In this document: positions 5,040-61,257 of the stretch, one piece after another
Layout of the letters: the number at the start of each line of letters is the position of its first letter
How positions within the stretch are numbered: position 1 is the stretch's first letter
Assembly (NCBI GenBank): GCA_041645055.1
Contig: JBAZQT010000001.1
Coordinates: forward strand, 7,842-71,841
DNA from: Methanoregula sp.
GTDB lineage: Archaea; Halobacteriota; Methanomicrobia; Methanomicrobiales; Methanospirillaceae
Length of the DNA: 64,000 bases
Direction: 5' to 3'
The notes under the pieces: model-generated
Databases searched by the model: none
Seen by the model: only the letters and a program-made list of their open reading frames with translations
What the model was told of the DNA's origin: nothing
Position numbers and translations under genes: made by a program

Positions 5040-5848
5040 TGACGGGCAAAAATAACCGGATATCACGCACTTCAGCAGTGTCTGAATCAATCGGATTCTT
5101 ACTCATCTTCACCATAGTGATCGCGGGTATCGGACTTGTTACCCTGTACGGTTATCCGATGCTTCTCCAGCAGCAGACAAGCGCTGATGAGCAGATCATG
5201 CAAAAGAACATGATCGTTTTGCAAAACGATGTGAAAAGTCTCGCGTATAAGACCGTGCCCTACAAAGAGACATCTTTAAAGATCGGGGGTGGGGCACTAA
5301 CGGTGTACAATTCAAGTTACACCCCTGCATCCTCAACGATAAAAATCTATGATCAAAATAATGTCGTGTACGAGAACTCATTCCAATCCGGAGATTTGCG
5401 ATATTCCTCTGATAGTGCCGGGACTGACATCTCTCTTCAGAACGGAGCAGTTGTCCTGCGCCGGCACGCGGTACCAGGTTCGGTGATGCTCGCTGAGCCC
5501 CGATGGTTCTATGACAGTCAGACAAATACCATGGTCATTAATCTTGTAAACATCACCAGCACCGGGCAAATTTCACGGACGGGTATCGGTACGGTACAGA
5601 TGACATTGGGAGAAACCCAGTTCCAAAAAACAGATTCTCCTTCTCTTGTGCCCCCGGTATACCTTGAATACACACCTGATCCGGCACAGGATTACTCGAT
5701 AGCCTGGGACAAGTATTTAAAAAACCCTCCTTTAGGGATGACACTGATAAGTGGAACTCCGGGTACGGGAACAGTGCTGAAATATCAACTGCCACCAACA
5801 ACCACATTGGTTATCAAACAATACGAAGTGAACATCAGATCACTATGA
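5039..5848 (+). CDS. Archaeal type IV pilin N-terminal domain protein
   Basis: 269 aa. N-terminus ..RTSAVSESIGFLLIFTIVIAGIGLVTLYG matches the archaeal pilin N-terminal pattern (R/K-x-AVS-x-hIG-hydrophobic helix) that I recognise from haloarchaeal and methanogen pilin-like proteins. Confidence 0.7.
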   Translation: MTGKNNRISRTSAVSESIGFLLIFTIVIAGIGLVTLYGYPMLLQQQTSADEQIMQKNMIVLQNDVKSLAYKTVPYKETSLKIGGGALTVYNSSYTPASSTIKIYDQNNVVYENSFQSGDLRYSSDSAGTDISLQNGAVVLRRHAVPGSVMLAEPRWFYDSQTNTMVINLVNITSTGQISRTGIGTVQMTLGETQFQKTDSPSLVPPVYLEYTPDPAQDYSIAWDKYLKNPPLGMTLISGTPGTGTVLKYQLPPTTTLVIKQYEVNIRSL

Positions 5849-8181: not shown

Positions 8182-11100
8182 TCACATGAAATCCGCTAAA
8201 CCCAGCTGCTGCTGCTTCTCCTCACCGAACGTGGACTGGATCGCAAGGTCGATCACTTCAACCCGCTGCTTGGTGTATTCCGAGACCTTGTATTTCCGGC
8301 AGATCTCGCGGGACATCTCGAGATATTTCTTTACCGAACCTTCGTGCACAGTGGGAATGATATTACCATTACACGGGTGCTTTCCCTTGAACTTCGTACA
8401 TTTGCCGGCAAGTGGCATCCGGCGGTAGCTCGTGTTGCACTTCGTACACCGGAATTTCTGCTTTGAAAAAGCCGACAGGTTGCCCATTAAGTCCCGGATG
8501 AAATGCGTGTTAAGTACCCGCTCTGCCACATCGTCGGCATCGACCGCCCGGATCTTCTCTGCCAGCACCAGTTCGGCCTCGAGTTTGTCGGTCATCGTCT
8601 TGAGCTGGGTGTACATCGATTCGATAGGCCCTGCCGAGATATCCGAGGTGTCGTGGGTGACCTGGAACCCTTCCAGCTGGGCAGGAGTGCCGATACGGTT
8701 CTCGACCCGGTCAATGAGTTTGACAATCGTTTTAGGCTCGATATAGTTGAGTGCACCGGTGTACACCTCGATGGGGTAATGATCGCAGACATCGACGTTT
8801 AAGGCTTCTTTGTCGATCTGGGCTGGATCAATCCTGCTCGTCAGCACGAGCGGGGCATCCATGGAACCGCCCCGGTTCTGGGGTAGGAACGAGCGCGAGA
8901 AGTTGATCAGGCCATCTAACAGAAGCATGATGCAGTCTTCATCCCCATCACACTGGCCGGTGAAGATCCCATTTGCCACCAGAGTATGATCGTCGGCAAC
9001 CGTCAGGCAATAGACCCGTTCCTCCGGTGCCGGCACGATATCGATAGAGCGTATACGGTCCGAGATCACGTTCATACCTTCCAGCACCGGAACCGCATCC
9101 CCGACTTTGAGTTCGAGTGCCCTGATCTTCCGGAGATATGCTGTATCCCAGACGAGCATTGCGTGATCGGGAGTGACTGCGATATCCTTCCCAAGCGCAG
9201 TCGTGATCCGGAGCAGGGTTGCCGGGGAACGGTGGATGGAGACCGTAGTGACCTTACGGATATGCATCACGCCATTTGTATCGATAGTTCGGGTGTAATA
9301 CGGACGAGCCGGGTCAGAGTAATAGGTGCCAAGCTGGTCGATGCCCGGACGACTCACGTCGAAATTTTCCAGCACAAACTTCCGTATCGGGTGCCGGGTC
9401 CAGGACCTGCCATCGTACACCTCGATCATGGTATCGCCAAAGAAGCAGTTCCTGCGCTTGGCGGCATGGAAGAACGGGTGGGCATATCCTACATCTGCCC
9501 GGGTAAACCCGATGATCCGGGCGAGAACACCCGCGCTCGTGTGTGGAGCGAGGCCAATAACAAGATGACCTACAAGATCCTGAGGTTTTTCCACATTGTA
9601 AAACGGGGGGAGGCCATAAACTTTCACCAGCAGGTCATCCATGAACTTTGCCACGCTCACCATGTACTCGGCACAGGAATCGGAAACAAGGAGATCCTGT
9701 GCATGGAGTTCAACCACCTGCTTGCCGTTCTGGAGATCGTACCCGTACGTGTCTTTGGTGTAACCCAGCGAGCGGAGTTTCTCGACCGGTACCCGCACTT
9801 CATCGGGGCGGATGTGGGTGAGCGGCAGGTCGATCATGTCAAACCGCGTGGTCCCGTCCTTAAAGACCCAGATGTTCCGTATCCCCCGTAATACCCCCTT
9901 CTCCATCGCCTCTACAGACTTCTCCTTCGAGATCATGCCCTTGACACCCTTGACAAGCGCGACCGCATCGGTTTTCATCCCGAGGTGTGCCATCACCTTG
10001 GCGTATTCCCCTTTGACATCCAGTTTGAGTCGCTGGGAGCAGGTTGCCTGTCCATCACACGCGGGACACCGGGGCAGACTGGTTTCCCGTCCGCACTTGA
10101 TGCAGATAAAGACCGCGACCGTATGCCCCCCGCACTTGTCGCACCGGTTGAGATAGGTGATCTCCTGGCACTGCGAGCATCGCCTTCGGCCGACTTCGAT
10201 CTCGATGATCCCGCATTCCTTCTGGATACCGATATCGGTATCGTTCTGGTCCTCCTGCTCGATATGGGAAGACGCAGACTGGAATGACCGCCGGGCACCC
10301 CCGGTGTCGCCGAGCGGGAAAAGAACATGTGGGGGAGGATTCATCTTACGGGGCTTGGATTTCCCCGGTCTCCCCATGCGCCCACCGATCCGTGTCCCCG
10401 ATCGCGAACGCATCTTAAACCCGGAAAGGTGCTGGACAAGAACTAGCTGGGACGTATCCGGGGGATTTGTCCAGACCCCGCATTTCTTCAGGGAATCATC
10501 CAGCCCGAGGCAGGCGATGAAGGCCCGGTACAGGTGGATCTTTACACACCCATCCCGCACGATGTGCGGAAGAAGCAGTGTTTCGAGAATGTCTTTGATG
10601 ACCGGATCAAGAGGGATCTGGAGATAATCGTCGACAATCTTTCCCGTACTCGCAAACGCATCAGCGAGGATGCGGATCTGGTCCATGGTGATATCGTCCC
10701 AGAACCATGTGTAAGCGGGATGGAGATATCCTCCCGCCCGGGCAAATGCAATTGCCTCCTCTTCATCTTTCGGTGTTTTTGTACCAGGTTCGCTGTCGAG
10801 CAGCCACCATTCGTCGCAGTAGCCGGAAGGTACCAGCGGGTGGTTGTTCTCTAAAAATTCCCCGTACGAGATGAGAATCTCGCCTACGTCAAGGATCCGC
10901 TCGATCACAGGCTGTAGGCGCTGGGCTGTTGCTTCATCATCGATCCGGAGCACATCGCCACTGGTGAGACGCACGGTCGGTCCTTCGATCGAGTCTACCG
11001 GTACGACTCCGCAGGCCTTACCCGGCCTCTCGGTCTTCATCTGGGTGCCGGTGGCGAGGAACTCGCCCAGCACATACAGAGTAGACGGGTGAAAGCCGGC

Positions 11101-12096
11101 GGCGGCAAACCCAGTGTTGCGCGAACGACCATACCGGAGCCGGAAGCCACCTTTTCTCATAGGATAGGCAAAGACCGGTCTCCCTCCGATCAGGTCACGA
11201 AGGTACTTGTCCAGCGGTTTGATACCAACAGTTTTTTCTTCATCACCGGACTTTGAGGCACCGGCTATGAGTTTGTCAAGCCAGTCCCAGCCCTCCATCT
11301 TCATCTTCTCGACCCGGCTCTTGAGCTTGCGTGCCTTGCCTGCGATACCTTCCCCGATAACGAGCGCCATGCCGCCCCGCACGGTATTGGTCTCTACCCG
11401 TTCGAGGTTCCGGTGCCCGGACACCTCTTCCTGTTCGGTTGCTTCGCCATCGATGCAAACCGGGCAGTTCTCGATGATGAGCCGTATCTCTGCTTCGCTT
11501 GGCAGGTACTGGAGGTTCATGATCGAGTTGTACTGCCGGATCTCCTCGATGTACCGCTCTACCTCGTCCTGCCGGGGTATGTAGCGGTTGATATTCAGTT
11601 TCTGGCGCACATAGTCCCCGACAAGCACCGAGAGTGCCTGTGCAGTCCCACCGGCACTCCGGATCGGTCCTGCATAGAATATCATAAGGTACTGGCTGCC
11701 ATCGTCGTTCTTGCCAAGCTCAATCTTTGCAATCCCTTCAGTGGGAGCCGCTACGACACCCTCCGTGAGAAGGGCCATCGCTGTCCGTATGGCATGGTCG
11801 AGTACCTCAAGAACAGAGGTCTCCCCGAACTTCCGGGCAACAAAATCATCACCGATTCGGAGCGCAATCTCCTCACGCGACATCTGGGCTTCGAGTTCAC
11901 GGATCCGCACCGCAACCCCTTTGATGCCAAGTAGTGCCTCAACGCGGTCGGCTAAATCGCTTGCAATAGGTATCTCAACATCGGTGGAAGGATCAAGACC
12001 ACGGGAGCGGGCTTCCTTTGCTATCGCTATCGCACGATGAAGATCATCAAGAAGGGATTTTTCATACGCCTCCATCGCGGGCGAGAGCACTAGCAT
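8182..12096 (-). CDS. polC: DNA polymerase II (PolD) large subunit DP2, intein-containing
   Basis: 1304 aa with DP2 hallmarks: cysteine-cluster zinc modules (CSQCQ..CDKCG..CIKCG..CPAC), catalytic-region motif [11 protein letters not shown]|...|CDGDEDC interrupted by an insert, and a C-terminal CTKCN..C..C zinc finger. Confidence 0.95.
8953..9447 (-). other. Mini-intein (165 aa) inserted in the AAKRRN/CDGDEDC motif of DP2
   Basis: The insert begins [10 protein letters not shown] (block A Cys), contains TPDH (block B TxxH) and ends ..[14 protein letters not shown], followed by the extein +1 Cys (CDGDEDC). There is no LAGLIDADG or HNH endonuclease domain. Both boundaries are in frame (9445-9447 = Cys1, 8953-8955 = terminal Gln). 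Confidence 0.85.
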
Positions 12097-15771: not shown

Positions 15772-16092
15772 ATGGACACGGAAAAGACACTGCTGCAACA
15801 AATTCGGGAAAAAGAACAGGATGTGGCAAAGAAGATAGAGGATGTAAAAGCTGGCACGGAAGCAACAATCGCCGCAGCAAAAACTGATGCCGAGAACCTG
15901 CTGTGCACCGCAAACGCTGAAGGAAAAACTGCCGCTGAAGAGTTATACTGGCGGGAGAAAGGAAAAACTGAAGCCAATATAGAACAGTTAAAACAGGAAG
16001 CGGGACGTGAAGCAGAAGCTGCAGCAGAAAAAGGCAAGAGAAATATTCCCGTTGCTGCAGCAGCCATTGTACGCTTTGTGACCATGGAGTAG
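15772..16092 (+). CDS. atpH: A-type ATP synthase subunit H
   Basis: 106-aa coiled-coil protein rich in E/K/A (LLQQIREKEQDVAKKIEDVKA..AEAAAEKG), immediately upstream of atpI. Confidence 0.8.
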   Translation: MDTEKTLLQQIREKEQDVAKKIEDVKAGTEATIAAAKTDAENLLCTANAEGKTAAEELYWREKGKTEANIEQLKQEAGREAEAAAEKGKRNIPVAAAAIVRFVTME

Positions 16093-16118
16093 TCCGGCAT
16101 TGCCCGGAAAGGGACCGT

Positions 16119-18050
16119 ATGCTCCAGCAGATGAAAAGAATCCAGGTAATCGGGCCAAAACCCTCATTCAATCGTGTAGTTGACCTGTTGTACCAGGAAG
16201 GAACTCTTCATCTCGAAGACGTATCAAAATCGGTCTCTCCGGATGAGATCCCTTTAGACAAAGTAGTGCTGGATACTGCAGGTGAAGTTACTGAAGTATT
16301 AGGAAAGATCAACGGGATCTTTTCTACGCTTCCTCACGTCAGTGATGATCCGGCACGCATGGATGAAATCCGAAAAACCCTCCAGAACCAGAGCCATGAA
16401 CAGGTTCTGTTGCGGGCGCAGGAGATAATCCGGAATCTTGAGACCACAACCAGGGATCTTGCGTCAAGAAAGAGTGAACTCACCTTAACCATCACCGCAT
16501 TAAACCGGTACTCAAAAGTCCTTGTCATCCTCCAGCCGCTTGAGCGCGAGCTGCCGATGCTGGAAGGGTTTGAAGTCACGATCCTCTTAATCCAGAAGGA
16601 ACACGGCGAGGTTGTTGAACTGATAAAAAAAGAATTAGACATCATCACCAGCAACCAGTTCGAGATGACGTCGACAAGCGTTGATGCCGAAACTCTCGCA
16701 GCCATCATGGTCTTTAACAAACGGCATTCCGAACAGGTCCATTCTTTCATCTACTCGGTGAATGTAAACGAGGTGCGTCTGCCCCGGGAATACATGGGAA
16801 AACCGTTTTACGAGATGTTTGCCTTAATCGAGGAGAACAAGCTCCGGGCCAATAACGAGATAGAAAAGATCGAAGAGGGACTTCTTGCACTTGCATCTGC
16901 CTGGCACCAGGAACTCGCCCTGTTGAAAAAAAACCTTGAGGACATGAATGACGAACTGGGGGCATTTTCAAACTTCGCGTTGTCTGAATATACCTTTGTC
17001 ATCATGGGGTGGATCCCCAAAAAAAAGTTACAAAAGGTAAAAAAATCCATAGCAGATGCATTCCAGGACCGGGTTATAGTAAATGAACTGGACACCACGG
17101 AAAAAGATATGGAAGGAGCGCCGGTCTTTTATGATAACCCCCGTTGGGTAAAACCGTTTGAGACGATTATGCAGCTCATTTCACCTCCGCGATACCGGGA
17201 GATCGATCCATCACCGGTTCTTGCGTTCTTTTTCCCGCTCTTTTTTGGGATCATGGTGGGGGATATCGGGTACGGGATCGTTATTTTTTTAATCGCGCTC
17301 CTCATCAAAAAGATGTATGGAACCATTGCATTTGCTGCAAGTGTAGCTGATATCCTCCTCATCTCGTCGATCCCGACCATCATCTTCGGTTATTTATACG
17401 GAGAATTTTTCGGGGATTTTGGTGAGATCATGGGCTGGCTGCATCCGGTACATTTCCTCGGTATAACGTGGAACCGGGTGGAGGCGATGATCCCCATGCT
17501 AATCCTTGCCATCGGTATTGGTGCTATTCATGTTATTCTGGGGCTCATCATCGGGATGCGTAATGCGATGATCATGAAAAGCAGGAAGCATCTCTCTGAA
17601 AAGACCGGGATGCTCCTTATGCTGATCGGGATCATTATTCTCATGGGAATGCTCGCAGGGGTGGTTCCTGAAATGGGGATCTATCCCACGGTCATACTTA
17701 TGGTGATCGCGCTGCCCCTGATCCTCTACGGTGCAGGTGTCTTTGGTGCGATCGAGGTTATGAGTACGGTAGGAAACATTCTCTCCTATGCCCGGCTGAT
17801 GGCAATCGGTATGGCATCCGTGATCCTCGCCATGGTCGCAAACAAACTCGGTGAGTCCTTTGAGATCCTGATCATCGGTATCATTGTGGCATTACTGCTT
17901 CATGCACTGAATATTGCGCTTGCCATGTTCAGCCCCTCTATCCACTCGATGCGTCTGCATATTGTGGAGTTCTTCTCGAAGTTCTACGAAGGTGGAGGCG
18001 TGGTGTATAAACCGTTTAAAAAAGCGGTTGTGGATGATGGGGGGAGGTAG
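16119..18050 (+). CDS. atpI: A-type ATP synthase subunit I (stator/proton channel a-subunit)
   Basis: 643 aa. N-terminal cytoplasmic coiled-coil half (MKRIQVIGPK...) and a C-terminal 7-8 TM half containing the conserved ..SYARLMA.G.AS.. arginine motif. Confidence 0.9.
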   Translation: MLQQMKRIQVIGPKPSFNRVVDLLYQEGTLHLEDVSKSVSPDEIPLDKVVLDTAGEVTEVLGKINGIFSTLPHVSDDPARMDEIRKTLQNQSHEQVLLRAQEIIRNLETTTRDLASRKSELTLTITALNRYSKVLVILQPLERELPMLEGFEVTILLIQKEHGEVVELIKKELDIITSNQFEMTSTSVDAETLAAIMVFNKRHSEQVHSFIYSVNVNEVRLPREYMGKPFYEMFALIEENKLRANNEIEKIEEGLLALASAWHQELALLKKNLEDMNDELGAFSNFALSEYTFVIMGWIPKKKLQKVKKSIADAFQDRVIVNELDTTEKDMEGAPVFYDNPRWVKPFETIMQLISPPRYREIDPSPVLAFFFPLFFGIMVGDIGYGIVIFLIALLIKKMYGTIAFAASVADILLISSIPTIIFGYLYGEFFGDFGEIMGWLHPVHFLGITWNRVEAMIPMLILAIGIGAIHVILGLIIGMRNAMIMKSRKHLSEKTGMLLMLIGIIILMGMLAGVVPEMGIYPTVILMVIALPLILYGAGVFGAIEVMSTVGNILSYARLMAIGMASVILAMVANKLGESFEILIIGIIVALLLHALNIALAMFSPSIHSMRLHIVEFFSKFYEGGGVVYKPFKKAVVDDGGR

Positions 18051-18193
18051 TAATAAGGCTCTTTGTTCCGAGAGGGCTGGTTGGATACATAGGCGGTCTC
18101 CCTATCAGGAACATTCTGGCAGATTGATAACTCACTCTGGCCGCAATGGGAAGGCACTATATTTCTGTTCAAACCGAAGAATACCGGACGACA

Positions 18194-18996
18194 TTTTCAA
18201 TCAAAGTCCGGTTGACTTTTTTCAAGCAGAGTCTGGTTGATTTTTTTTAATTAAGGTTTGCTTGAAAATTTACAATCAAAGTCCGGTTGAAAAATAAAAA
18301 TCAAAGTCTGTCTTGAAACTTGAAATCGAAGTCTGCTTACAAATTTGAAATCAAGGTTTGATTGATCCGGATCAGGTTTTCAATCACGATCATGATCGCG
18401 ATGAATAATTTTCATTCAGGGTTTGATGAAAAAATCGCAATCGAAGTCTGCCGGAAAATTTCAAATCGGGATCCGGTTGAACGTTTTCAAGCTAGGTTTG
18501 ATTGATTTTCCGAACAATTCACGTCGGAATGATTTTTTTGGATTCGTTTTTTCAATCAAACTCTGGTTAATAATTTCCAATCAAAGTCTGCTCCCAAACT
18601 TTCAATCAAGGTTTGCCTGAAAATTTACAATCAAGGTCCGGTTGATCCGGATCAGGTTTTCAATCACGATCATGATCGCGATGAAAAATTTTCATTCAAG
18701 GTTTGATGGAAAAATCGCAATCAAAGTCTGCCCGGAAATTTCAAATTGGGATCCGGTTGAAAAATTCAAATCAAGGTTTGATTAAAATTCTTCAAGCAAG
18801 GTCCGGTTGAAAATTTTCAATCGGGATCCGGTCAGGATTTTTCAAGCAGAGTCTGGTTGAAATGTTATCATCAGGGTTTGATTGATCCACGAACAATTTT
18901 CTATCAAACTTCGATTGATAATTTCATGGCAAGGTCCGGTTACCTTTTTTCAATCAAAGTCCGGCCGAAGATTTTCAATCCAGATCTGATTGATAT
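18194..18996. repeat. Tandem array of about 34 degenerate 24-25-bp units (consensus about TTTTCAATCAARGTCYGGTTGAAAA) with a 280-bp higher-order repeat
   Basis: Identical 18-mers CAATCAAAGTCCGGTTGA occur at 18198-18215 and 18273-18290, with many 1-4-mismatch copies head to tail. A perfect junction palindrome TTGAAAATTTTCAA lies at 18807-18820. The 130-bp blocks 18351-18480 and 18631-18760 are about 90% identical. No credible ORF. Confidence 0.9.
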
Positions 18997-19460
18997 TGCA
19001 TAAGAAGAACACCCATACCATATCAAAACGTAAATGATTCAGAAAATGCTAACGTATCGTGATTGCGGATGCATCCAAAACAATGTCAAACATGCAGACA
19101 TGCAATAAAAAAAACTCAAAGAACATCCCTTCATGCATATCTCTGCAAAGCCACGGGTTTGATCCGGGAACCTGTACTACCGGCGTTTTGGATATATTGT
19201 TTCGGCTGCCTCTGGTATGACATGAGTCCGTGGATACCGGTAACCGATGACAAAAAACCAAGGTCCGAATAAAAAATTGGCCTGAATGAATACTCAATAC
19301 ATATCAGGCGCACAGGATCTCTGCCAAGTCCGGATTACATCATTAAGAAGCCTCAACAAGAGTTCTCATGCTGCGTTTTTCTGCGGGAACTCCTCAATAT
19401 TTATTCTATTGGACGAAAAACAAAAGAGTATCAGAAGTGTTCCCGGAGAAAAAGCAAACC

Positions 19461-19802
19461 ATGACATTGTGCGAAGTACGAACCAACGGGGATATTACCA
19501 TTGTCGTAATGCCCCTCCAGATTGACCATGTCGCTGCATTGACACTGGACCACGAACTCCACGAATTCGCCATCCGGGGACCTAAAGCCCTGTTTTGCGA
19601 CTTTTCACATACAAAATATATCTCCAGTTCAGGACTCCGGATCATCCTCAAGACCGCAAAGACAGTAAAGGCGGATAATGGCAACTTCGGGGTCTTCTCT
19701 CTTACTCCTTTTGTTGACCATATCTTCTCTATGTCCGGGTTTTCAAAAGTAGTCTCTATCTATGATACCGAAGAGGCAGCAGTCCGGGCTGTTTCACGTT
19801 AA
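19461..19802 (+). CDS. STAS-domain protein (SpoIIAA-like anti-sigma-factor antagonist family)
   Basis: 113 aa counted from the internal ATG at 19461 (the track ORF starts at 19368). The motif DFSHTKYISSSGLRIIL corresponds to the D.S...fIDSSGL phospho-serine loop. The C-terminus ..FSMSGFSKVVSIYDTEEAA is typical. Confidence 0.75.
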   Translation: MTLCEVRTNGDITIVVMPLQIDHVAALTLDHELHEFAIRGPKALFCDFSHTKYISSSGLRIILKTAKTVKADNGNFGVFSLTPFVDHIFSMSGFSKVVSIYDTEEAAVRAVSR

Positions 19803-19891
19803 TACTATCTTTTTAAATCAAAAAAATGTTCAATCAGAGTCCGGAATGAAAAATAGATTCGGGAGCCCGTCAACGTATATCATAGCGCAAC

Positions 19892-20554
19892 TCACTTTGC
19901 GCCCAACATTTTATCTTTCGCTTTCTTCTTCTTCCGCTCCAGGATACTCTTGACCTTCTTCAACCGGAACAGGTCTTCGCGCTCTCGCTCTTCAATGGCA
20001 TTCTTGATGTACTTCGCCTGGCTCTTCAACTCGGGGATCAGGATCTGTTCCAGCGCATTTACCCGGCGGCGGTTCATCTGGATCTCTGCCCCCAGCCGCC
20101 GCATAGCAGTCTCAGTCTCAGCGAGTTGTATAAGCAGATCCAGTTCAGCTTCAAACCGCTCTGCGGTCTCATCGATCCTCCCGCTCGTTGAGATAATACC
20201 ATAGCCCCGTTCAAGCATGCTCTTTGATATCCGTTTTTTCTCAATGACGGGTACCGGGACACCCATGATGTTTTTCCCGGTAATATCAACGGTAATTGAC
20301 TTACGGGTAGCAAATGATGCGGATTTGAGCGTGACCGGATCGTCTACTGCCTGTGCAATCATGAGAGCGAGATCTGCTTCCTTTGAGACCAGTTCCAGTT
20401 CGTCGCGGGAGTTTGAGACCGTGTTTAAGATCTTGAAAAATTCCTGGATGAGTGCATCCATCTTTTCCCGCAGGAGGTCCCTGCCCTGCTCTGCAAGCTT
20501 GATCTGGGCTTTTTTCCGCATCAGCTCCATTCGCGTGGGCTTGACCTGTTCCAT
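19892..20554 (-). CDS. atpD: A-type ATP synthase subunit D
   Basis: 220 aa starting PTRMELMRKKAQIKLAEQGRDLLREK..., the conserved subunit D N-terminus. It is the last gene of the atpK-D unit. Confidence 0.9.
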   Translation of the reverse strand: MEQVKPTRMELMRKKAQIKLAEQGRDLLREKMDALIQEFFKILNTVSNSRDELELVSKEADLALMIAQAVDDPVTLKSASFATRKSITVDITGKNIMGVPVPVIEKKRISKSMLERGYGIISTSGRIDETAERFEAELDLLIQLAETETAMRRLGAEIQMNRRRVNALEQILIPELKSQAKYIKNAIEEREREDLFRLKKVKSILERKKKKAKDKMLGAK

Positions 20555-20557
20555 ACC

Positions 20558-21964
20558 TCAGCCTCCGCTTTGTTCCTTATACGTGGGATGATATTTTTTA
20601 ATGTACTCCCGTTTTATCCGTTTAAGCTCATCTTCGGGAAGCATGGCAAAAAGATCCCATGCAATCTTAAACGTATCTTCTATCGACCGGTCGTCATCTC
20701 CCTGCGATATGAACTCCTTTTCAAACCCGTCTGCTAACTTCAGATATTTTTTATCCAGTTCGGTCAAGGCTTCTTCCCCGACGATCGCAACGAGCCGGCG
20801 CAGGTCCCGTCCGTATGCGTACGATGCGTAGAGCTGATCAGCTACACCACGGTGATCTTCCCGGGTCTTGCCCGGGCCGATCCCTAAGTTCATGAGCCGG
20901 GACAGGCAGGGAAGGGCATCGACCGGCGGATCTGCACCCCGGCGGAAGAGATCCCGTGACAAGACGATCTGCCCCTCGGTGATATACCCGGTGAGGTCAG
21001 GAACCGGGTGGGTGATATCATCGTCAGGCATCGTCAGGATTGGGATCTGGGTGATCGACCCGCTCTTTCCTTTCAGCCTGCCTGCCCGCTCGTAGATAGA
21101 GGAAAGGTCCGTATACATGTAACCGGGATAACCCCTGCGACCGGGCACTTCCTCCCGAGCAGTCGAGATCTCCCGGAGGGCTTCGCAGTAATTGATCATG
21201 TCCGTTAAGATCACCAGTACGTGCAGGTTGTGGGTGAACGCGAGGTACTCTGCAACTGTCAGCCCGCATCGCGGGGCTGCGAGCCGCTCGACGGTTGGAT
21301 CATCCGCGAGGTTCATAAAAAAGACTACCCGTTCGAGCGCCCCGGTCCGCTCAAAGTCCCGCATAAAGAAGGACGCCTCCTTGTGGGTGATACCCATGGC
21401 AACAAAGACCACGGCAAATTTCTCACCCTCACCCCGGACTTTTGCCTGCCGGGCGATCTGGGCAGCAAGTTTGCTTGCAGGAAGGCCTGAGCCGGAAAAT
21501 ATCGGGAGTTTTTGTCCCCGTACAAGGGTGTTGAGCCCATCTATTGCCGACATGCCGGTCTGGATGAAATCCGCGGGTTTGTCCCGGGCCGAGGGGTTAA
21601 TAGGTGTTCCGGCGATATCGAGAATCGCCTCCGGTATGATCTCCGGGCCACCGTCACGGGCTTTTCCCACACCACTGAAGACCCGGCCCAGCATATCCAG
21701 CGACACATTGATCCGGGCGGGTTCACCGGTGAACCTGACGGATGTATCGGTTGTATCAATACCCCGGGTGCCTTCATACACCTGGATGACCGCATGTTCT
21801 TCGGAGATATCAAGCACCTGCCCGGTCCGTACCTCACCATCCCGCAGGGTGATCCGGACGATCTCGCCAAAGGAGGCGCCTTTGACATTTTTAACAAAGA
21901 TTAATGGACCTGAAACATAATCGATCGTCTTATACTCTTTTGTTACCAGCGAGACGGGTTTCAT
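20558..21964 (-). CDS. atpB: A-type ATP synthase subunit B
   Basis: 468 aa. Non-catalytic subunit pattern (..[12 protein letters not shown].., ..[14 protein letters not shown]..). Confidence 0.95.
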
Positions 21965-23700
21965 CGTTCCACCTCCAGAGACATCAGCTGCCGATCGATT
22001 TCACCGATCATGTCCTGGATCTGGTTGATCTCCTGGATCTCTTTCATTCGCCCGATATCTGCTTTTAAGGAAAGGCCCTGCACCTGTTTGAGCGTTATGC
22101 CCCGGTTCATCCCTTCGATCACGCTGGCATAGTAGGTCATGATCACCTTGAGCATCAGGTACTGTTTTTCAATGGGGCAGAATGAATCCGTGTCGCTATA
22201 AGCGCTCTGCTGGAGGAAGTCCTCACGAATCATCCTCGTCACATCGAGAATCACCTTCTCGCTTTCCGGCAGGGCATCCGGGCCCACCAGCTGGACAATT
22301 TCCTGCAGCTCGACTTCCTTTTGTAACAGGTACATGGTTTTTTCCCGCAGTTCCCGCCAGTCGGGTGCCACATTTTTCGTATACCATTCCCCAATGCTGT
22401 CCAGGTACAGCGAGTAGCTCTTGATCCAGTTTACTGATGGAAAATGCCGGCGGTATGCTAAGTTGGTATCCAGTGCCCAGAATGTCCCGACAACCCGCAG
22501 CGTATTCTGGGTGATCGGTTCAGAGAAGTCCCCGCCCGGGGGTGATACTGCACCGACAACAGTAATGGAGCCGTTCCGTTCTCCCGTACCAAGGCACACG
22601 ACCCGGCCCGCCCGTTCGTAGAACGCGGAAAGCCGGGTGGCAAGATACGCAGGATAACCCTCTTCACCGGGCATCTCCTCAAGGCGTCCTGACACTTCGC
22701 GCAGTGCCTCACCCCACCGGGAGGTCGAGTCTGCCATCAGGGCAACATCGTACCCCATGTCCCGGAAATATTCTGCAATGGTGATGCCGGTATAGATCGA
22801 CGCCTCCCGTGCAGCAACCGGCATGTTGGAAGTATTTGCAATGAGGATCGTCCGCTGGATTAAGGGAAGATTGGTCCGGGGGTCAACCAGTTCGGGGAAC
22901 TCTTCAAGAACGTCAGTCATCTCGTTGCCCCGTTCACCGCACCCGATGTACACCACAATCTGTGTATCGGACCATTTGGCAAGCGTTTGCTCAGATACCG
23001 TCTTTCCCGTCCCAAAACCTCCCGGGATCATTGCCGTCCCACCTTTGGTGACCGGAAAGATACAGTCAAAGACCCGCTGGCCGGTGATCAGAGGAAGGAC
23101 CGGATCGAGTTTTTTCATGTGCGGCCGTGGAATCCTGACCGGCCAGACCTGCATCATAGAGAGATGGATTTTCGTATTGAGCGTGCATATTATTTCTTCA
23201 ACGGTAAACTGCCCGCTCCGGATATCGGTGACGGTACCGGAAACATTGTGTGGCACAAGGATCCGGTGTTCGAAATGAAATTCCTTTACAGTTCCTAAAA
23301 TATCTCCCGTAGTGACCGTGTCACCGATCTTAACGGTAGGAACAAACTCCCACTTTTTCTCGCGGTTGAGCCCGGGTGCCGATATACCCCGGGCAATAAA
23401 ATCCCCGCAGAGTTCTAAAAGCACCGGCAGCGGGCGCTGCACCCCATCATAGATGGAGGCAAGGAGCCCGGGCCCGAGTTCGACCGAGAGAGGTTTTTCG
23501 GTATTTTCAACAGGCTCACCGGTCATAAGACCGGTAGTGTCTTCATAGACCTGAATAACCGCATCTTCTCCTTCAAGGCGGATAATCTCCCCCCGGAGCG
23601 CCTCCTCACCAACCTTGACCACATCATACATCTTTGACCCTTTCATACCATGGGCAATGATGACGGGTCCGGAAATTCGCAAAATGGTTCCTGTAATCAT
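21961..23700 (-). CDS. atpA: A-type ATP synthase catalytic subunit A
   Basis: 579 aa. Walker [10 protein letters not shown], ..[11 protein letters not shown].., ..[10 protein letters not shown]... Overlaps atpB by 4 nt. Confidence 0.95.
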
Positions 23701-23704
23701 ACCA

Positions 23705-24025
23705 TCACCTCTTCAAAACGATATTGTACCCGATTGCTTTTCTTAAGAGCCGTTCTATGTACGTTCTCCGGTCAACCTCTTTGGATTTCGAGGGTATCGG
23801 GATGATGAGCGGGCGGTGCATCTTCTCAATCCGGTCCATCAGTTTCTCATCTAAGGAGAGCATGAACTCCTCATTCACCGCCACAATACCGATGTCATCC
23901 TTGTACAGCAGCGGGGGGATCACTTTTCGGGCTTCATCCATAGTACCCGCTTCAAGGACCTCGACTCCGGCAAGGCGGAACCCGGATGCACGATCCCGGT
24001 CAGTAACAACTACGAATTTATACAT
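23705..24025 (-). CDS. atpF: A-type ATP synthase subunit F
   Basis: 106 aa (..[27 protein letters not shown]..) in the conserved position between C and A. Confidence 0.85.
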
Positions 24026-25076
24026 ACACCAGCTCCTCTTTCAGCTGATCCAAGGGAAAATCTGCCGTCTTGCACCGGGAGATGATACGGATGTTGGTGA
24101 TCTCGTTGTATTTTGCCCAGAAATACCCGATAACAGAAGCCACGCTTAAGGGATCTCCTAAAAAAGCGCTCACACCTTGTTGAACCAGGAATTTTTCTAA
24201 TTGTTTTTCGATAACCGAGATCTTCTGGGTTCTCAAGGCGGAAGGCGGCAGTGCTGCAAGGAAACGGTAGGGGGTTTTTTTCAGATCTTCTACAACATCT
24301 TCAATCGAATGCAGGGAGAGCAGGTAGTCAAGCTTGCGTTCATCAAATTCCCTGCCGCCGCTGATGAGAAATTTTTTTGCCTCCTCCGGATCGATATGAT
24401 CCCGGATCATCCGAAGGATCGTCCTGAGGTTCACGACATCAATCTCTAACGAAATGATATTCCTTATGAGCCCGTTGTTGTAGCCGGGAATCTTAACCTG
24501 TTCGAGCGCGTCAGTATAATAGTATTCATCCAGTGCGCACTCAAGCAGGGCAAGATCTCCGGTCTTTGCAAACTCCGGGTATTCCCCGGTTAGGGGTTTG
24601 GAATACCGGATATTCCATGTAGCAAGCATATCGATAACTGCCCTGACATCCGGTTGCCGGACGAGTTCGATTACGGTGGCTTCATCCAGTTCCCCGGCAG
24701 GTACGAGACAATCGAGGATCTCTTCATTCGTGATATGGATATTTTTACCGCGGAGGATCGTTTTTATGTTCTGGACATCCCAGCGATGCAGGAAGATGGT
24801 GATGTACTTTTCCGCTTCTTCCTCCTTGACAAACTGGAGAATCTTTCTAAAGGTTCGTGTAAAATTTTTTCGGAGGGCATATTCAATGCAGAGCACCCCT
24901 GAGTACTGGACTTTTGCTTCGATGATATCAGATTTGTAAGGTGTCTTTTCGAGCTCAGCAATGAGAGACTCAAGATCCGGTTGCAATACCAGGTTGTCGA
25001 GGGCGCGCCGGTCCAGCAGGCGACTTTTCATCCCCCGCATCCGTGCGTTGATGTACCCCCAGTCCATCTCAATCAC
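24018..25076 (-). CDS. atpC: A-type ATP synthase subunit C (V-type d homologue)
   Basis: 352 aa all-helical protein. N-terminus WGYINARMRGMKSRLL is characteristic of this subunit. Confidence 0.9.
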   Translation of the reverse strand: MIEMDWGYINARMRGMKSRLLDRRALDNLVLQPDLESLIAELEKTPYKSDIIEAKVQYSGVLCIEYALRKNFTRTFRKILQFVKEEEAEKYITIFLHRWDVQNIKTILRGKNIHITNEEILDCLVPAGELDEATVIELVRQPDVRAVIDMLATWNIRYSKPLTGEYPEFAKTGDLALLECALDEYYYTDALEQVKIPGYNNGLIRNIISLEIDVVNLRTILRMIRDHIDPEEAKKFLISGGREFDERKLDYLLSLHSIEDVVEDLKKTPYRFLAALPPSALRTQKISVIEKQLEKFLVQQGVSAFLGDPLSVASVIGYFWAKYNEITNIRIISRCKTADFPLDQLKEELVYV

Positions 25077-25653
25077 CAGAAAGAATAGAATAAATCTCCA
25101 GTTTTTTTCGTTCTTTTGCCCGCTCCAGCCGGGACTCCACGGTATTTGAAATGATTACCGATCTATCGGGCAGGCTTGCCACAAGTCCTCCGGCAGAAGT
25201 GAGATCCGGAATAATATCTGCATGGATGTTTAGAGAGGCAAGCGTCTTCCTGCAGAGCTCTTCATCCCGTTTGTCCACCTGGATACAAAATGTATCCACA
25301 CAAAGAGCCCCTGCTGCATCCATGAGAAATTTTTTGAAAATTTCCGGGTATTCCGGGTCGTTTCTCAAGTTCGACAGCTGAAGACTGGCGTCGTTAAACG
25401 CTGATGCAAAAAGGTGTTCCCTGATCTTTATCAGGTGTGCCTTATTCTCGGCTTTTGCAAGGTACATGAGTTTATTCTTCTCAAATCCCGCTGCCATTTC
25501 TGCATCGGAGATCTGCGATTGCCGTATCAGTTCTGCCTGCTCGCGTGCCTTTTTTCTGACACTCTCGACAGTAACGCGTGCATTTTCTAAAAGTTCCTTC
25601 TCCTTCTCCTGTGCACTTTCGTCAACTGACTTTAACAGGTTTTCATAAGCCAC
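25069..25653 (-). CDS. atpE: A-type ATP synthase subunit E
   Basis: 194 aa. N-terminal E/K-rich coiled coil plus a C-terminal globular domain (..GGLVASLPDRSVIISNTVESRLE..). Confidence 0.85.
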   Translation of the reverse strand: MAYENLLKSVDESAQEKEKELLENARVTVESVRKKAREQAELIRQSQISDAEMAAGFEKNKLMYLAKAENKAHLIKIREHLFASAFNDASLQLSNLRNDPEYPEIFKKFLMDAAGALCVDTFCIQVDKRDEELCRKTLASLNIHADIIPDLTSAGGLVASLPDRSVIISNTVESRLERAKERKKLEIYSILSGD

Positions 25654-25737
25654 AAAACAACACCCGCCTTTTTTCCGTTACCGGAAAAAACCGGAATGAA
25701 TGTCGGGGAACTCCCGGCTTTTCCGAAATCTTCGATA

Positions 25738-25956
25738 TTACTTAACCATCAGGATAATCATTGCAGCAACGACAAAACCTAAGATCACCAGTGTTTCGGG
25801 AATTGCTTCAAGAATAATGATCGACCCGGCAGTTTCCGGGCGCTCGGCTATAGCACCAGCCCCGGCTGAACCTATTCGTGACTGTGCCCAACCCGTCCCG
25901 ATAGCGCCGGCAGCAAATGCAACTGCTGCTCCAATGGGTACTTCCCAACCAACCAT
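25738..25956 (-). CDS. atpK: A-type ATP synthase proteolipid subunit K (c subunit), single hairpin
   Basis: 72 aa with two TM helices. G/A-rich helix 1 (GAIGTGWAQSRIGSAGAGA) and the ion-binding carboxylate in LEAIPET of helix 2. GGAGGT lies 9-14 nt upstream of the ATG. Confidence 0.9.
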   Translation of the reverse strand: MVGWEVPIGAAVAFAAGAIGTGWAQSRIGSAGAGAIAERPETAGSIIILEAIPETLVILGFVVAAMIILMVK

Positions 25957-25996
25957 TCTTTGATACCTCCCAATGATACAACCTAACAGGTTAACC

Positions 25997-26004
25997 TATA
26001 TTAA
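25997..26004 (-). promoter_or_regulatory. TATA-like box upstream of atpK
   Basis: The reverse strand reads TTAATATA about 41-48 nt upstream of the atpK ATG. This fits an independent promoter for the atpK-D unit. Confidence 0.35.
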
Positions 26005-26068
26005 TGTATGGGGAAACGGCAGGCAATAAAAAAACAGATTTCGTCGGTAGCTAGCTTCCACCGCGACA

Positions 26069-26389
26069 CTACCCAAGGATTTCATCCAAGCGGGCGAGTG
26101 TTTCCGGAGTCATACACTTTTGAGTAAGCCCCTCTTTTGCAATAGCGATAATGGATACAAGATCTGCATGTGATAGCGTGGAAAAGCAGTAATCGTTCCA
26201 GCTGTCCCGGTCAACACTGATCCAGATCTCCCCTAATACATCACGGAGGAGAGCACAATCCTCCGCAGAAAAACATTGCCAGTCCTCACCAAAGCTGCGA
26301 CGTATCTTTTCATACGCATCTTCAACGGCTTTTTCCTTCTGGATCTGGAATCGCCGTCTGCCAAGACTTTCTTCAGTGCTGCGGGTCAT
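26069..26389 (-). CDS. Small hypothetical protein (paralogue of 26564-26899)
   Basis: 106 aa, ATG start. Shares the pattern GRR....EK.VE.A...I....G..W..FS..D..LL...L...W...D...W with its divergent neighbour. Confidence 0.6.
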   Translation of the reverse strand: MTRSTEESLGRRRFQIQKEKAVEDAYEKIRRSFGEDWQCFSAEDCALLRDVLGEIWISVDRDSWNDYCFSTLSHADLVSIIAIAKEGLTQKCMTPETLARLDEILG

Positions 26390-41219: not shown

Positions 41220-41223
41220 TACA

Positions 41224-54681: not shown

Positions 54682-55626
54682 TTACGACTGCTTGACCCGA
54701 TAATTCGTAATAATCAATTCGTTGATATTCCCGCGACCAGCGCCGTTGCTATTGATCATCCGCTTTGCAGGAACCCGCTCAATGAAGTAATCTGAATAGA
54801 GATCATCAAAGAATGAATCATTGGGATTCTTGTTCTTCGGATCGGAATTACTCAGCATAATTTTTGCGCCCTTGTCGTCAAGTTCCTTGAAAAATGTAAC
54901 AAGACATTCCTGGTCCTTATCGGAAAATCCATTCTTTGAATAGGAAGTAAATGAGGAAGTCTTGTTCAGCGGACGGTAAGGTGGATCAAAATACACGAAC
55001 GTGTGATTGTCAACAAATTTCCGGCATTGGGTAAAATCACCCGGAATAATTTTTGTTTTTTTCAGCAACGCTGCTACAGATTTCAGATTATCTTCGTTCA
55101 GAATATCCGGATTCTTGTATCGCCCGAAAGGAACATTGAATCCTCCTTTTTTATTTACCCGGAACAAGCCATTGTAACAGGTGTGGTTAAGAAAAATGAT
55201 CTGGGCTGCACGTTCAATCCATTCAGGGGTGTTCTTCCTGAAATCGATTTCAGGTAACTTCTCATTGAAGGCATCCCGGACTTCGTAATAAAAAATTTCT
55301 TTATTCTTTTCACTTTTGGAAAAAAAATCTGATTCGAGCGTTTCCAGTTCAGAGATTAATTTTTTTACCGAACGCTGGACAACGCGATACGTCAGAACCA
55401 GTTCTTCATTAACATCGCAGATATAGCACTGTTCAAAAGAAAATCTCTGGTTAAGGTCAAAAAAAACCGCTCCCCCGCCAATGAACGGTTCGATATACCT
55501 GGTGATTTTTCCTTCCGTTAATTCTTCCGGCAAACGTTTGTCAAACTCACTGAGTAACTGGGTTTTACCCCCGGCCCATTTGAGAAATGGCCGGGCTGAT
55601 GATTTGAGTATCGTTTGTGTTGCCAT
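54682..55626 (-). CDS. dam: Dam-family site-specific DNA adenine-N6 methyltransferase (D12 class), apparently orphan
   Basis: 314 aa. SAM motif RPFLKWAGGKTQLL, ..YIEPF.GGGAVFF.., catalytic VYFDPPY. Visibly more AT-rich than its neighbours. No nuclease gene is adjacent. Confidence 0.9.
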   Translation of the reverse strand: MATQTILKSSARPFLKWAGGKTQLLSEFDKRLPEELTEGKITRYIEPFIGGGAVFFDLNQRFSFEQCYICDVNEELVLTYRVVQRSVKKLISELETLESDFFSKSEKNKEIFYYEVRDAFNEKLPEIDFRKNTPEWIERAAQIIFLNHTCYNGLFRVNKKGGFNVPFGRYKNPDILNEDNLKSVAALLKKTKIIPGDFTQCRKFVDNHTFVYFDPPYRPLNKTSSFTSYSKNGFSDKDQECLVTFFKELDDKGAKIMLSNSDPKNKNPNDSFFDDLYSDYFIERVPAKRMINSNGAGRGNINELIITNYRVKQS

Positions 55627-60839: not shown

Positions 60840-60869
60840 CCGGGCCGGCATTCTCGGCCCGGCGTTTTT
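60840..60869 (+). terminator. Hairpin plus T-run downstream of the DUF4258/DUF2283 pair
   Basis: Perfect 8-bp stem CCGGGCCG (60840-60847) / CGGCCCGG (60855-60862) with a 7-nt loop, followed by CGTTTTT. Confidence 0.5.
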
Positions 60870-60990
60870 GATTGAAATTTTTTCACCAGACTTTGATTTT
60901 ATTTTTTAACCGGATGTTGGTTGAAAAAATCCGGGCGGACTTTGACAAGAAAAATTTAACCGGACCTTGCATGAAAATTTTTCAGCGAAA
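60870..60990. repeat. Short array of about 5 units of the 18.2-19.0-kb repeat family, opposite orientation
   Basis: CACCAGACTTTGATT, AACCGGATGTTGGTTGA, GGGCGGACTTTGACAAG and AACCGGACCTTGCATGAAAA are reverse-complement variants of CAATCAAAGTCYGGTTGA (compare TTCATGGCAAGGTCCGGTT at about 18923-18941). Confidence 0.55.
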
Positions 60991-61222: not shown

Positions 61223-61257
61223 CCTCGCCGTGCCTCGGAGAGGCCCTGAGGCGGGGA
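61223..61257. repeat. GC-rich 35-nt hairpin element, copy 2 (inverted relative to copy 1)
   Basis: CGCCGTGCCTCGGAGAGGCCCTGAGGCGGGGA (61226-61257) is the exact reverse complement of 36653-36684. Confidence 0.7.

What the first reader, a model, noticed from the sequence alone, without database searches (positions are those of the whole stretch)
18194..18996. 0.8-kb array of about 34 tandem 24-25-bp units with palindromic junction boxes, a 280-bp higher-order period and GATC clusters
The 1.4 kb between the atpI stop (18050) and the STAS gene (19461) has no credible ORF. Most of it is a head-to-tail array of degenerate units, consensus about TTTTCAATCAARGTCYGGTTGAAAA, with identical 18-mers at 18198-18215 and 18273-18290. 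Each unit begins TTTTCAA and ends TTGAAAA, so unit junctions form a dyad box; it is perfect at 18807-18820 (TTGAAAATTTTCAA). A second layer exists: 18351-18480 and 18631-18760 are about 90% identical 130-bp blocks offset by 280 bp, roughly 11 units. Each block contains the perfect palindrome CGATCATGATCG (18387-18398 and 18667-18678) and four GATC sites within about 35 bp. I count about 13 GATC sites in the array, against about 3 expected by chance, and a Dam-family methylase is encoded at 54682-55626. The units are contiguous with no unique spacers, so this is not a CRISPR array. Large arrays of dyad-symmetric sites are what iteron, centromere-like or nucleoid-protein loading regions look like. 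I know of no described archaeal element with this unit.
Basis: partly seen in the sequence, partly recalled or inferred. Interest (0 to 1): 0.72.

Follow-up and report, generated by a model that had tools for sequence, protein, structure and literature searches.

The report
Interspersed mosaic repeat of Methanoregula
The 0.8-kb array is real, but it is one unusually expanded copy of a previously undescribed non-coding repeat family found in many intergenic regions of Methanoregula genomes, so it is not a unique origin or centromere.

Summary
Window 18194-18996 is a head-to-tail array of about 31-32 units of 25 bp, with a 140/280-bp higher-order period and two GATC-rich double palindromes. The interpretation needs changing. 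A two-unit pattern scan of one genome per species found more than 115 loci, 107 of them in 35 Methanoregula/Methanoregulaceae MAGs, with up to 10 arrays per genome in a truncated scan. The window holds a second 5-unit array at about 60866-60990 on the minus strand.

The family has a shared architecture. It combines a 25-bp box with an asymmetric, near-invariant core (AATCArrGTyyG), a GATC module recurring every 281 bp, and a fixed-length centre carrying AAAAGTTAA and CACGACGGA.

The site downstream of atpI is occupied in species with 95% down to 62% AtpI identity. Copy number there ranges from 1, 2, 7 and 19 units to about 32 in the window.

I found no Orc1/Cdc6, Rep or Par gene nearby, no RNA covariation, and no Rfam, plasmid, phage or viral match. 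In one orthologous group the element is better conserved than four-fold synonymous sites.

My best reading, which is inferred, is a DNA-level array of head-to-tail protein-binding boxes. The main rival is a selfish or neutral minisatellite. It counts as a new member of a known kind, the interspersed intergenic repeats.

The parts
18194..18996 (+). Main array: about 31-32 co-oriented 25-bp units (consensus TTTTCAATCAArGTCyGGTTGAAAA), organised in a 140/280-bp higher-order repeat
18269..18790 (+). Two copies of the higher-order repeat (18269-18510 and 18549-18790; 242 nt at 82% identity, offset 280). This corresponds to the family-wide 281-bp period.
18359..18407 (+). GATC module 1: TTGATCCGGATCAGGTTTTCAATCACGATCATGATCGCGATGA. 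It has 4 GATC sites and the palindromes TGATCCGGATCA and CGATCATGATCG.
18639..18687 (+). GATC module 2, 280 bp downstream of module 1, with the same sequence
18484..18548 (+). Degenerate 'centre' module. It keeps TTCACGTCGGAA (18518-18529; family consensus TyCACGACGGArG) but lacks the family's AAAAGTTAA motif.
18051..18193 (+). Left flank between the atpI stop and the first unit. It is conserved in close relatives (81% over 89 nt in L121/L122; 73% in L120) and fixes the orthology of the array site.
60866..60990 (-). Second, small array of the same family (about 5 units, opposite strand). It lies just after a GC-rich hairpin plus T-run downstream of a DUF4258/DUF2283 gene pair, at the edge of a low-GC region.
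54682..55626 (-). Dam-family N6-adenine methyltransferase with no neighbouring ORF large enough to be an obvious restriction enzyme. It is a possible modifier of the GATC modules, but the link is not shown.

Best explanation
SHOWN. The array is one expanded copy of a Methanoregula-wide family of interspersed, non-coding mosaic repeats.
- Each element is built from co-oriented 25-bp boxes. These have an asymmetric, near-invariant core (A6 A7 t C9 A10 r r G13 T14 y y G17) followed by an A/T-rich spacer.
- Every 281 bp the boxes are punctuated by a GATC-rich double palindrome (TTGATCCGGATCAGnTTTTCAATCGCGATCrTGATCGCGATGA).
- There is also a fixed-length centre carrying AAAAGTTAA and TyCACGACGGArG.
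- Elements lie in intergenic DNA in either orientation and in all gene contexts, at many loci per genome.
- They persist at orthologous sites across species.
- They gain and lose units. At the atpI site the counts are 1, 2, 7, 19 and about 32.

INFERRED.
- The boxes are head-to-tail binding sites for an unidentified sequence-specific DNA-binding protein, and the palindromic GATC modules are sites for a dimeric and possibly methylation-sensitive partner. Together they would form a nucleoprotein array that acts at the DNA level, in an architectural or insulator-like role.
- Array length changes by unequal recombination or slippage between boxes and between modules.
- The large size of this particular array is a lineage-specific expansion and not a requirement of the locus.
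For: Family and distribution:
- More than 115 loci match a two-unit pattern. 107 of them lie in 35 Methanoregula/Methanoregulaceae MAGs, and 8 scattered bacterial hits are at about the chance level.
- A unit HMM resolves 114 arrays of 3 or more units, median 293 bp and maximum 956 bp, with units co-oriented within each array.

Shared architecture:
- GATCCGGATC occurs in 70 of 114 arrays and ATCGCGAT in 88 of 114.
- Module spacing is 279-282 bp in 25 of 37 cases.
- Centre modules align almost without gaps across 59 sequences.
- Array ends fall in a fixed phase of the 281-bp period: 59 of 64 left ends and 61 of 64 right ends, against about 60% expected (my tally from the distance lists printed).

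Sequence-specific constraint, not structure:
- Information content is very uneven along the unit (C9 0.99, G17 1.00, T14 0.98).
- The pattern persists in 69 units chosen only by phase, not by score.
- No pair of positions covaries under any stem or dyad model; mutual information is 0.03 or less for most pairs and 0.07 at most.

Persistence:
- Arrays lie downstream of atpI in species with AtpI identity of 95, 90, 89, 86, 82, 70, 69 and 62%.

Constraint:
- In the orthologous group L023/L100/L095/L088 the element is 76-85% identical, against 58-70% at four-fold sites of the flanking genes. Adjacent non-coding DNA is unalignable.
- Module identity within a genome (0.70) barely exceeds that between genomes (0.65), so homogenisation within a genome does not explain the conservation.

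Copy-number change at a fixed site.
Against: - No binding protein has been identified, and no binding, methylation or transcription data are available.
- A 25-bp spacing is 2.4 helical turns, which is not the integral spacing usual for cooperative side-by-side binding.
- The closest relatives manage with 1-2 units at this site, one lineage (L123) has let the GATC palindromes decay, and another (L001) has no array there. A large array is therefore dispensable locally.
- The constraint test rests on one orthologous group. Alignments of repeats are forgiving, and 32-140 gap columns were ignored.
- Gene orientation was judged with a crude ORF caller.
Confidence: 0.5

Rival explanations
1. Selfish or neutral repetitive DNA. 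A non-autonomous element (a MITE/minisatellite hybrid) spread by copy-and-paste or ectopic gene conversion. It now merely persists, with internal units expanding and contracting by slippage, and has no host function.
For: - It is dispersed in intergenic DNA with no bias in orientation or context: ++ 29, +- 22, -- 21, -+ 17.
- Array ends share one phase, as expected for copies of a single founder element.
- Copy number at one site varies widely among close relatives, with decay in L123 and absence in L001.
- Arrays often sit at contig ends in MAGs, for example L017, L022, L034, L039 and L050.
Against: - There are no terminal inverted repeats, target-site duplications or sharp termini. Ends fade into degenerate units.
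- No flanking-protein family recurs across non-orthologous loci; the recurrent clusters look like orthologous neighbours such as AtpI. The flanking proteins were not annotated, so a transposase was not specifically excluded.
- No copy was found in viral, phage or plasmid collections.
- Sites are occupied across deep divergence, down to 62% AtpI identity.
- The element is better conserved than four-fold sites, position-specific invariance is strong, and there is little within-genome homogenisation.
Confidence: 0.3
2. RNA-level or transcription-level element. The arrays would be transcribed into a repeat RNA (a sponge or processed small RNAs). Alternatively they act as multi-T-tract bidirectional terminators or insulators between genes.
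For: - Each unit junction carries T4-T8 on one strand and A4-A6 on the other. There are 6 runs of T5 or longer on each strand of the array.
- The main array starts 143 nt after the atpI stop. The small array follows a hairpin plus T-run downstream of a gene.
- The single unit left in L121/L122 is a 12-bp-stem hairpin with z = -5.6.
Against: - There is no covariation in any stem model of the unit.
- RNAalifold finds no consensus structure for the centre on either strand, and folding z-scores are about -0.3.
- Window units and GATC modules fold no better than shuffles.
- There is no Rfam match.
- Arrays also lie between divergent genes and in either orientation relative to co-directional genes.
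- The AAAAGTTAA motif does not resemble the local TATA boxes, which read TTATTTATT upstream of tRNA-Leu and the STAS gene.
- Termination does not explain the GATC modules or the centre.
Confidence: 0.12
3. Locus-specific replication or segregation site. This would be an origin with many mini-ORB-like Orc1/Cdc6 boxes, a centromere-like parS/SegB site, or the iterons of an integrated plasmid.
For: - The 3' half of the unit (GTCCGGTTGAAA) matches 9 of the first 12 positions of the Pyrococcus mini-ORB TTCCAGTGGAACT quoted in PMC1904270.
- M. thermautotrophicus origins carry many 13-bp mini-ORBs (same paper).
- The region is AT-rich, and the PolD large-subunit gene lies 6 kb away.
Against: - There are dozens of loci per genome, not one or a few.
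- No Orc1/Cdc6-like ORF was found in the window (Pfam scans of most ORFs over 100 aa) or, by a Walker A motif screen, in about 107 related 8-kb loci. Rep and Par genes were not screened for in the related loci.
- All boxes are direct repeats. There are no inverted ORBs around an unwinding element.
- The ORB-like half is the least conserved part of the unit.
- The closest relatives have 1-2 units at the site.
- There is no clear GC-skew turn at the array.
Confidence: 0.03

Closest known systems
BIME/REP elements of enterobacteria (bacterial interspersed mosaic elements)
   Same: Both are non-coding and strictly intergenic, with many copies per genome. Both are mosaics of a short repeated box plus other conserved motifs in a fixed order, carry variable numbers of tandem boxes, and sit at conserved positions between related species. 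BIMEs act as protein-binding platforms (IHF, gyrase, Pol I; from established knowledge).
   Different: REP boxes are imperfect palindromes that alternate in orientation. Here the boxes are asymmetric and all co-oriented. No RAYT-type transposase link was seen. The host is archaeal. This family also has a 281-bp higher-order period and GATC double palindromes.
MIRU/VNTR loci of mycobacteria
   Same: Both are tandem minisatellite units dispersed at tens of intergenic loci, with unit number varying between close relatives at a fixed site. Here the counts are 1, 2, 7, 19 and about 32.
   Different: MIRUs are 40-100 bp and often lie within operons, where they overlap stop and start codons. They have no higher-order period and no palindromic modules.
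BOX elements of Streptococcus pneumoniae (boxA-boxB(n)-boxC)
   Same: Both are modular elements with defined end modules and a variable number of internal tandem subunits, dispersed in intergenic regions.
   Different: BOX elements are thought to act through RNA structure. Here no RNA covariation or stable folding was found.
Plasmid/phage iterons and archaeal ORB/mini-ORB clusters
   Same: Both consist of direct repeats of an asymmetric box of about 12 bp with an A/T-rich spacer, sometimes with clustered GATC sites, as in P1 oriR and E. coli oriC (established knowledge).
   Different: Iterons and ORBs are tied to one replicon locus and to an adjacent initiator gene. These arrays are dispersed and have no such neighbour.

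Membership tests
Archaeal origin (ORB/mini-ORB cluster) | Adjacent or nearby orc1/cdc6 initiator gene | tested here: not met
   Pfam scans of most window ORFs over 100 aa found none. A Walker A motif screen of all fetched loci found no Orc1-like ORF.
Archaeal origin (ORB/mini-ORB cluster) | One or a few loci per chromosome | tested here: not met
   Up to 10 arrays per genome in a truncated scan, and 2 in this 64-kb window.
Archaeal origin (ORB/mini-ORB cluster) | Boxes match the ORB core (TTCC...GAA), with inverted copies flanking an AT-rich unwinding element | tested here: inconclusive
   The match to the mini-ORB quoted in PMC1904270 is 9 of the first 12 positions, and it lies in the least conserved half of the unit. 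All boxes are direct, none inverted.
CRISPR array | Repeats separated by unique spacers of similar length, usually with cas genes nearby | tested here: not met
   Units are contiguous at a 25-bp period with no spacers. No cas domains appeared in the Pfam scans of the window.
Plasmid/virus iterons or centromere (parS/SegB site) | Linked rep or par/seg gene, or presence on an extrachromosomal or integrated element | tested here: not met
   The flanks are ATP synthase and STAS genes that are syntenic in relatives. There are no matches in viral, phage or plasmid collections.
MITE | Terminal inverted repeats, target-site duplication and uniform length | tested here: not met
   Ends fade into degenerate units and lengths run from 50 to 956 bp. 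An inverted GTTAAC-containing motif occurs at the left end in only a few loci. Array ends do share a phase.
Interspersed intergenic repeat family (the REP/BIME, BOX, MIRU kind) | Many non-coding copies dispersed in intergenic regions of one lineage | tested here: met
   114 arrays in 35 related genomes, intergenic and in all contexts.
Interspersed intergenic repeat family (the REP/BIME, BOX, MIRU kind) | Modular or mosaic construction with a variable number of tandem subunits | tested here: met
   The 25-bp boxes, GATC module and centre occur in a fixed order, with 0-4 modules per array and variable unit number at an orthologous site.
Interspersed intergenic repeat family (the REP/BIME, BOX, MIRU kind) | Demonstrated interaction with host proteins, or an effect on neighbouring genes | not testable with these tools
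   This needs DAP-seq or pull-down, methylome and transcriptome data.
Known RNA family (Rfam) | Covariance-model match at or near the gathering score | tested here: not met
   Only sub-threshold chance hits, about 20-22 bits against gathering scores of 83-91.

The most novel reading that the evidence does not exclude
The arrays are functional chromosomal landmarks of Methanoregula. In this reading a dedicated sequence-specific protein polymerises head-to-tail on the 25-bp boxes, and Dam methylation of the GATC double palindromes gates a second, dimeric binder. That would give dozens of methylation-switchable architectural or insulator sites per chromosome. It would be an archaeal counterpart of SeqA/GATC-cluster or BIME-gyrase biology.
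Probability: 0.15. Interest if true: 0.8.

Novelty: new member of a known kind. Interest (0 to 1): 0.5.

Why it matters
Interspersed intergenic repeat families are well studied in bacteria, where REP/BIME, BOX and MIRU elements bind architectural proteins, shape transcripts and serve as typing markers. Few have been described in archaea, as far as I know. This family is abundant and specific to one lineage. It has an unusual two-level architecture and appears better conserved than synonymous sites.

It gives three practical handles:
- A defined 12-bp core and a GATC double palindrome to use as bait for the unknown binding proteins of an environmentally important methanogen group.
- Natural VNTR markers for strain-resolved metagenomics of peat and wetland Methanoregula.
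- An explanation for recurrent assembly breaks in these MAGs.

It also removes a false lead, because this locus should not be annotated as an origin or a centromere.

Tried and rejected
- Origin/ORB idea. The 3' half of the unit looks mini-ORB-like. I rejected the idea because of the many loci per genome, the absence of an Orc1-like ORF, and the lack of inverted boxes.
- RNA hairpin per unit. There is no covariation for any pairing register, and folding of window units is no better than shuffles.
- Structured small RNA in the centre module. RNAalifold returns an empty structure on both strands and z is about -0.3.
- Promoter in the centre. AAAAGTTAA does not resemble the local TATA boxes.
- Known RNA, plasmid, phage or virus relatives. 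None were found.
- Association with a recurrent neighbouring gene. Clustering of 367 flanking ORFs gave clusters that look like orthologous neighbours, such as AtpI, and no family shared across unrelated loci.
- Orientation bias relative to genes. None was found. Within this window the two arrays have opposite orientations.
- Within-genome homogenisation as the cause of conservation. The effect is small, 0.70 against 0.65.
One Pfam call failed on wrong coordinates. One contig (P0002) had no DNA available.
- Literature searches for Methanoregula or archaeal interspersed tandem repeats found nothing relevant.

Full report
OBSERVATION

The sequence between the atpI stop (18050) and the STAS gene (true ATG at 19461) contains a genuine tandem array at 18194-18996.

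- Tandem Repeats Finder gives several period-25 rows and a period-140 row.
- The repeat finder gives 19 copies of a 23-nt unit spaced by 25 bp, and a 242-nt pair at offset 280.
- Autocorrelation peaks sharply at 25, 140 and 280 bp.

Three corrections apply.

- There are about 31-32 units, not 34.
- GATC is 2.2 times over-represented across the whole window, so 6.8 sites are expected at the local rate, not 3. The tight four-site clusters are the unusual feature.
- The conserved part of the unit is not the outer dyad (see Architecture).

CONTEXT

The window comes from a Methanoregula-like archaeon. The best AtpI hits are Methanoregula or Methanomicrobiales MAGs.

- atpH (15772-16092) and atpI (16119-18050) are on the plus strand.
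- The rest of the A-type ATP synthase operon (D, B, A, F, C, E and a c-subunit gene) converges on the minus strand from 19892.
- A small STAS gene lies between them. The c-subunit is inferred from the gene calls of syntenic relatives.
- This layout is conserved in relatives.
- No Orc1/Cdc6, Rep or Par gene was found among the window ORFs I scanned, which were most of those over 100 aa.

THE KEY FINDING: A DISPERSED FAMILY

A 20-mer search found a second, 5-unit array on the opposite strand at about 60866-60990.

I then scanned one genome per prokaryotic species with a two-unit pattern (AAKCARRGTYYG-N13-AAKCARRGTYYG).

- 107 of them lie in 35 Methanoregula/Methanoregulaceae/'Methanomicrobiales' MAGs.
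- The other 8 are scattered bacterial hits, about the number expected by chance.
- A unit HMM built from the window resolves 114 arrays of 3 or more units in these loci. The median length is 293 bp and the maximum 956 bp, and units are co-oriented within each array.
- Single genomes show up to 10 arrays even in this truncated sample. One 493-kb contig carries 8.

The element is therefore not a unique chromosomal site.

ARCHITECTURE

The arrays share a mosaic plan.

- The 25-bp box has a very uneven conservation profile. A6, A7, C9, A10, G13, T14 and G17 are near-invariant. Positions 11, 12, 15 and 16 vary almost only by transitions. The 3' arm (GTTGA) and the T/A runs are loose.
- The same profile appears in 69 units chosen only by their phase between anchors, with C9 at 0.99 and G17 at 1.00. 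It is therefore not an ascertainment artefact.
- A GATC-rich double palindrome, TTGATCCGGATCAGnTTTTCAATCGCGATCrTGATCGCGATGA, is present in most arrays. GATCCGGATC occurs in 70 of 114 and ATCGCGAT in 88 of 114.
- This module recurs at 279-282 bp in 25 of 37 spacings.
- Between modules there is a fixed-length centre that begins GGTTGyrAAAAGTTAA and contains TyCACGACGGArG. The segments in between are variable, and the centre aligns almost without gaps across 59 sequences.
- Array ends fall in a constant phase of the 281-bp period: 59 of 64 left ends and 61 of 64 right ends, against about 60% expected (my tally from the distance lists printed). This points to copies of one founder element and argues against independent local slippage.
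- The window array is a somewhat degenerate, expanded member. It has two modules 280 bp apart, and its centre keeps TTCACGTCGGAA but lacks AAAAGTTAA.

WHAT IT IS NOT

- Not a structured RNA. No pair of unit positions covaries under any stem or dyad model. RNAalifold gives no consensus structure for the centre on either strand, and z-scores are near zero. Window units and modules fold no better than shuffles. There is no Rfam match.
- Not a promoter-like centre. The local TATA boxes read TTATTTATT.
- Not from a known plasmid, phage or virus.
- Not tied to any recurrent neighbouring gene. Clustering of 367 flanking ORFs gave clusters that look like orthologous neighbours. No Orc1-like ORF lies in any locus by the Walker A screen.
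- No bias in orientation or context relative to flanking genes: ++ 29, +- 22, -- 21, -+ 17. This used a crude ORF caller.

EVOLUTION AT THIS SITE

The position downstream of atpI is occupied by a family member in species whose AtpI is 95, 90, 89, 86, 82, 70, 69 and 62% identical to the window's. L038, of which only an 80-residue AtpI fragment was fetched, also has an array, but after the STAS gene. With the same conserved left flank, the copy number is:

| Locus | AtpI identity | Units |
|---|---|---|
| L121, L122 | 89-90% | 1 |
| L120 | 95% | 2 |
| L003 | 82% | 7 |
| L123 | 86% | 13 + 6, split by a 1.3-kb insertion, with decayed GATC palindromes |
| window | - | about 32 |

- L001 (88%) has a DUF1016/DUF1670 gene insertion and no array.
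- More distant species carry canonical two-module elements here.

The site is therefore old, but its array length is highly labile. The large array in this window is a lineage-specific expansion.

CONSTRAINT

- In the orthologous group L023/L100/L095/L088 the element is 76-85% identical.
- Four-fold sites of the two flanking genes are 58-70% identical, and the neighbouring non-repeat intergenic DNA does not align.
- Modules from different loci of one genome are only slightly more alike (0.70) than modules from different genomes (0.65). Within-genome homogenisation therefore does not explain the conservation.
- This supports purifying selection on the motifs. It rests on one orthologous group and on alignments of repetitive DNA.

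MECHANISM

Shown:
- a dispersed, mosaic, non-coding DNA family;
- sequence-specific conservation without structural conservation;
- persistent sites;
- gain and loss of units.

Inferred:
- the asymmetric boxes are head-to-tail binding sites for an unidentified DNA-binding protein;
- the palindromic GATC modules are sites for a dimeric partner;
- that partner may be sensitive to methylation by the Dam-family enzyme encoded at 54682-55626, which has no neighbouring ORF large enough to be an obvious restriction enzyme;
- array length changes by unequal recombination.

The main rival is that the family is selfish or neutral repetitive DNA. The two readings are compatible in the way they are for REP/BIME elements. 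Terminator or RNA roles, and origin or centromere roles, are less likely for the reasons given above.

COMPARISON AND NOVELTY

The closest known kinds are bacterial interspersed intergenic repeats.

- BIME/REP: a mosaic of boxes and motifs that serve as protein-binding platforms.
- MIRU: dispersed VNTR minisatellites.
- BOX: end modules with a variable number of internal subunits.

This family differs in four ways: co-oriented asymmetric boxes, a 281-bp higher-order period, GATC double palindromes, and an archaeal host. I found no description of it in two full-text searches. I rate it a new member of a known kind. Interest is moderate (0.5) as it stands, and higher if the methylation-gated architectural reading proves true.

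LIMITS

- The genome scan was truncated, and all related genomes are MAGs.
- Gene calls around arrays were crude.
- No experimental data (binding, methylation, transcription, replication) could be consulted.

Noticed in passing
window 40749-42827: A complete bacterial-type Holliday-junction operon, ruvC-ruvA-ruvB, with strong Pfam matches, in an archaeal genome. Archaea normally use Hjc/Hjm-type enzymes, so this may be a horizontal acquisition.
   Followed up: no
window 15772-26389: The A-type ATP synthase operon is split. atpH-atpI lie on the plus strand and converge on the D-B-A-F-C-E and c-subunit genes on the minus strand, with a STAS-domain gene (anti-sigma-antagonist-like; 19461-19802) in between. 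The layout is conserved in relatives.
   Followed up: partly
window 8182-12096 (-): PolD large subunit (DP2) with an intein-splicing domain inserted in the catalytic region. It lies 6 kb from the array.
   Followed up: no
whole window; loci L003-L118: GATC occurs at 8.4 per kb in the window and 8.9 per kb in related loci, about 2.2 times the composition expectation. An apparently orphan Dam-family methylase (54682-55626) sits in a low-GC stretch (53-56 kb).
   Followed up: partly
window 61000-64000: GC drops sharply to 0.37-0.39 next to the small repeat array. The region has few ORFs from 61.0 to 61.9 kb and a DUF2321 zinc-ribbon gene (61948-62439, minus strand). It looks like an acquired island whose edge coincides with a family array.
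   Followed up: no
L123 7360-8700; L001 12133-13965: At the orthologous atpI site, one relative has a 1.3-kb insertion inside the array carrying an unannotatable 167-aa ORF. Another has a DUF1016 fragment and two DUF1670 genes in place of the array. Arrays may be hotspots for insertion.
   Followed up: partly
window 19031-19292: A non-coding stretch between the array and the STAS promoter is 72% identical to L123 8915-9173 and absent from other relatives. Its 82-aa ORF is only partly conserved, so it is probably not a gene.
   Followed up: partly
L121 7060-7095; L122 4278-4313: Where only one unit remains, it is a perfect 12-bp-stem hairpin (TTTTTCAATCA-AAGTC-TGATTGAAAAA; z = -5.6) with T and A runs on either side, 130 nt after atpI. 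It could serve as a bidirectional terminator.
   Followed up: partly
window 2007-5848: A cluster of small genes with DUF7287, DUF7288, DUF7266 and DUF7289 domains, syntenic in relatives. Function was not examined.
   Followed up: no
L046 3510-4425; L055 1392-2347: These are the largest arrays in other genomes, with 3-4 nearly identical copies of the full 281-bp higher-order unit. This shows recent amplification of whole units and not only of 25-bp boxes.
   Followed up: partly
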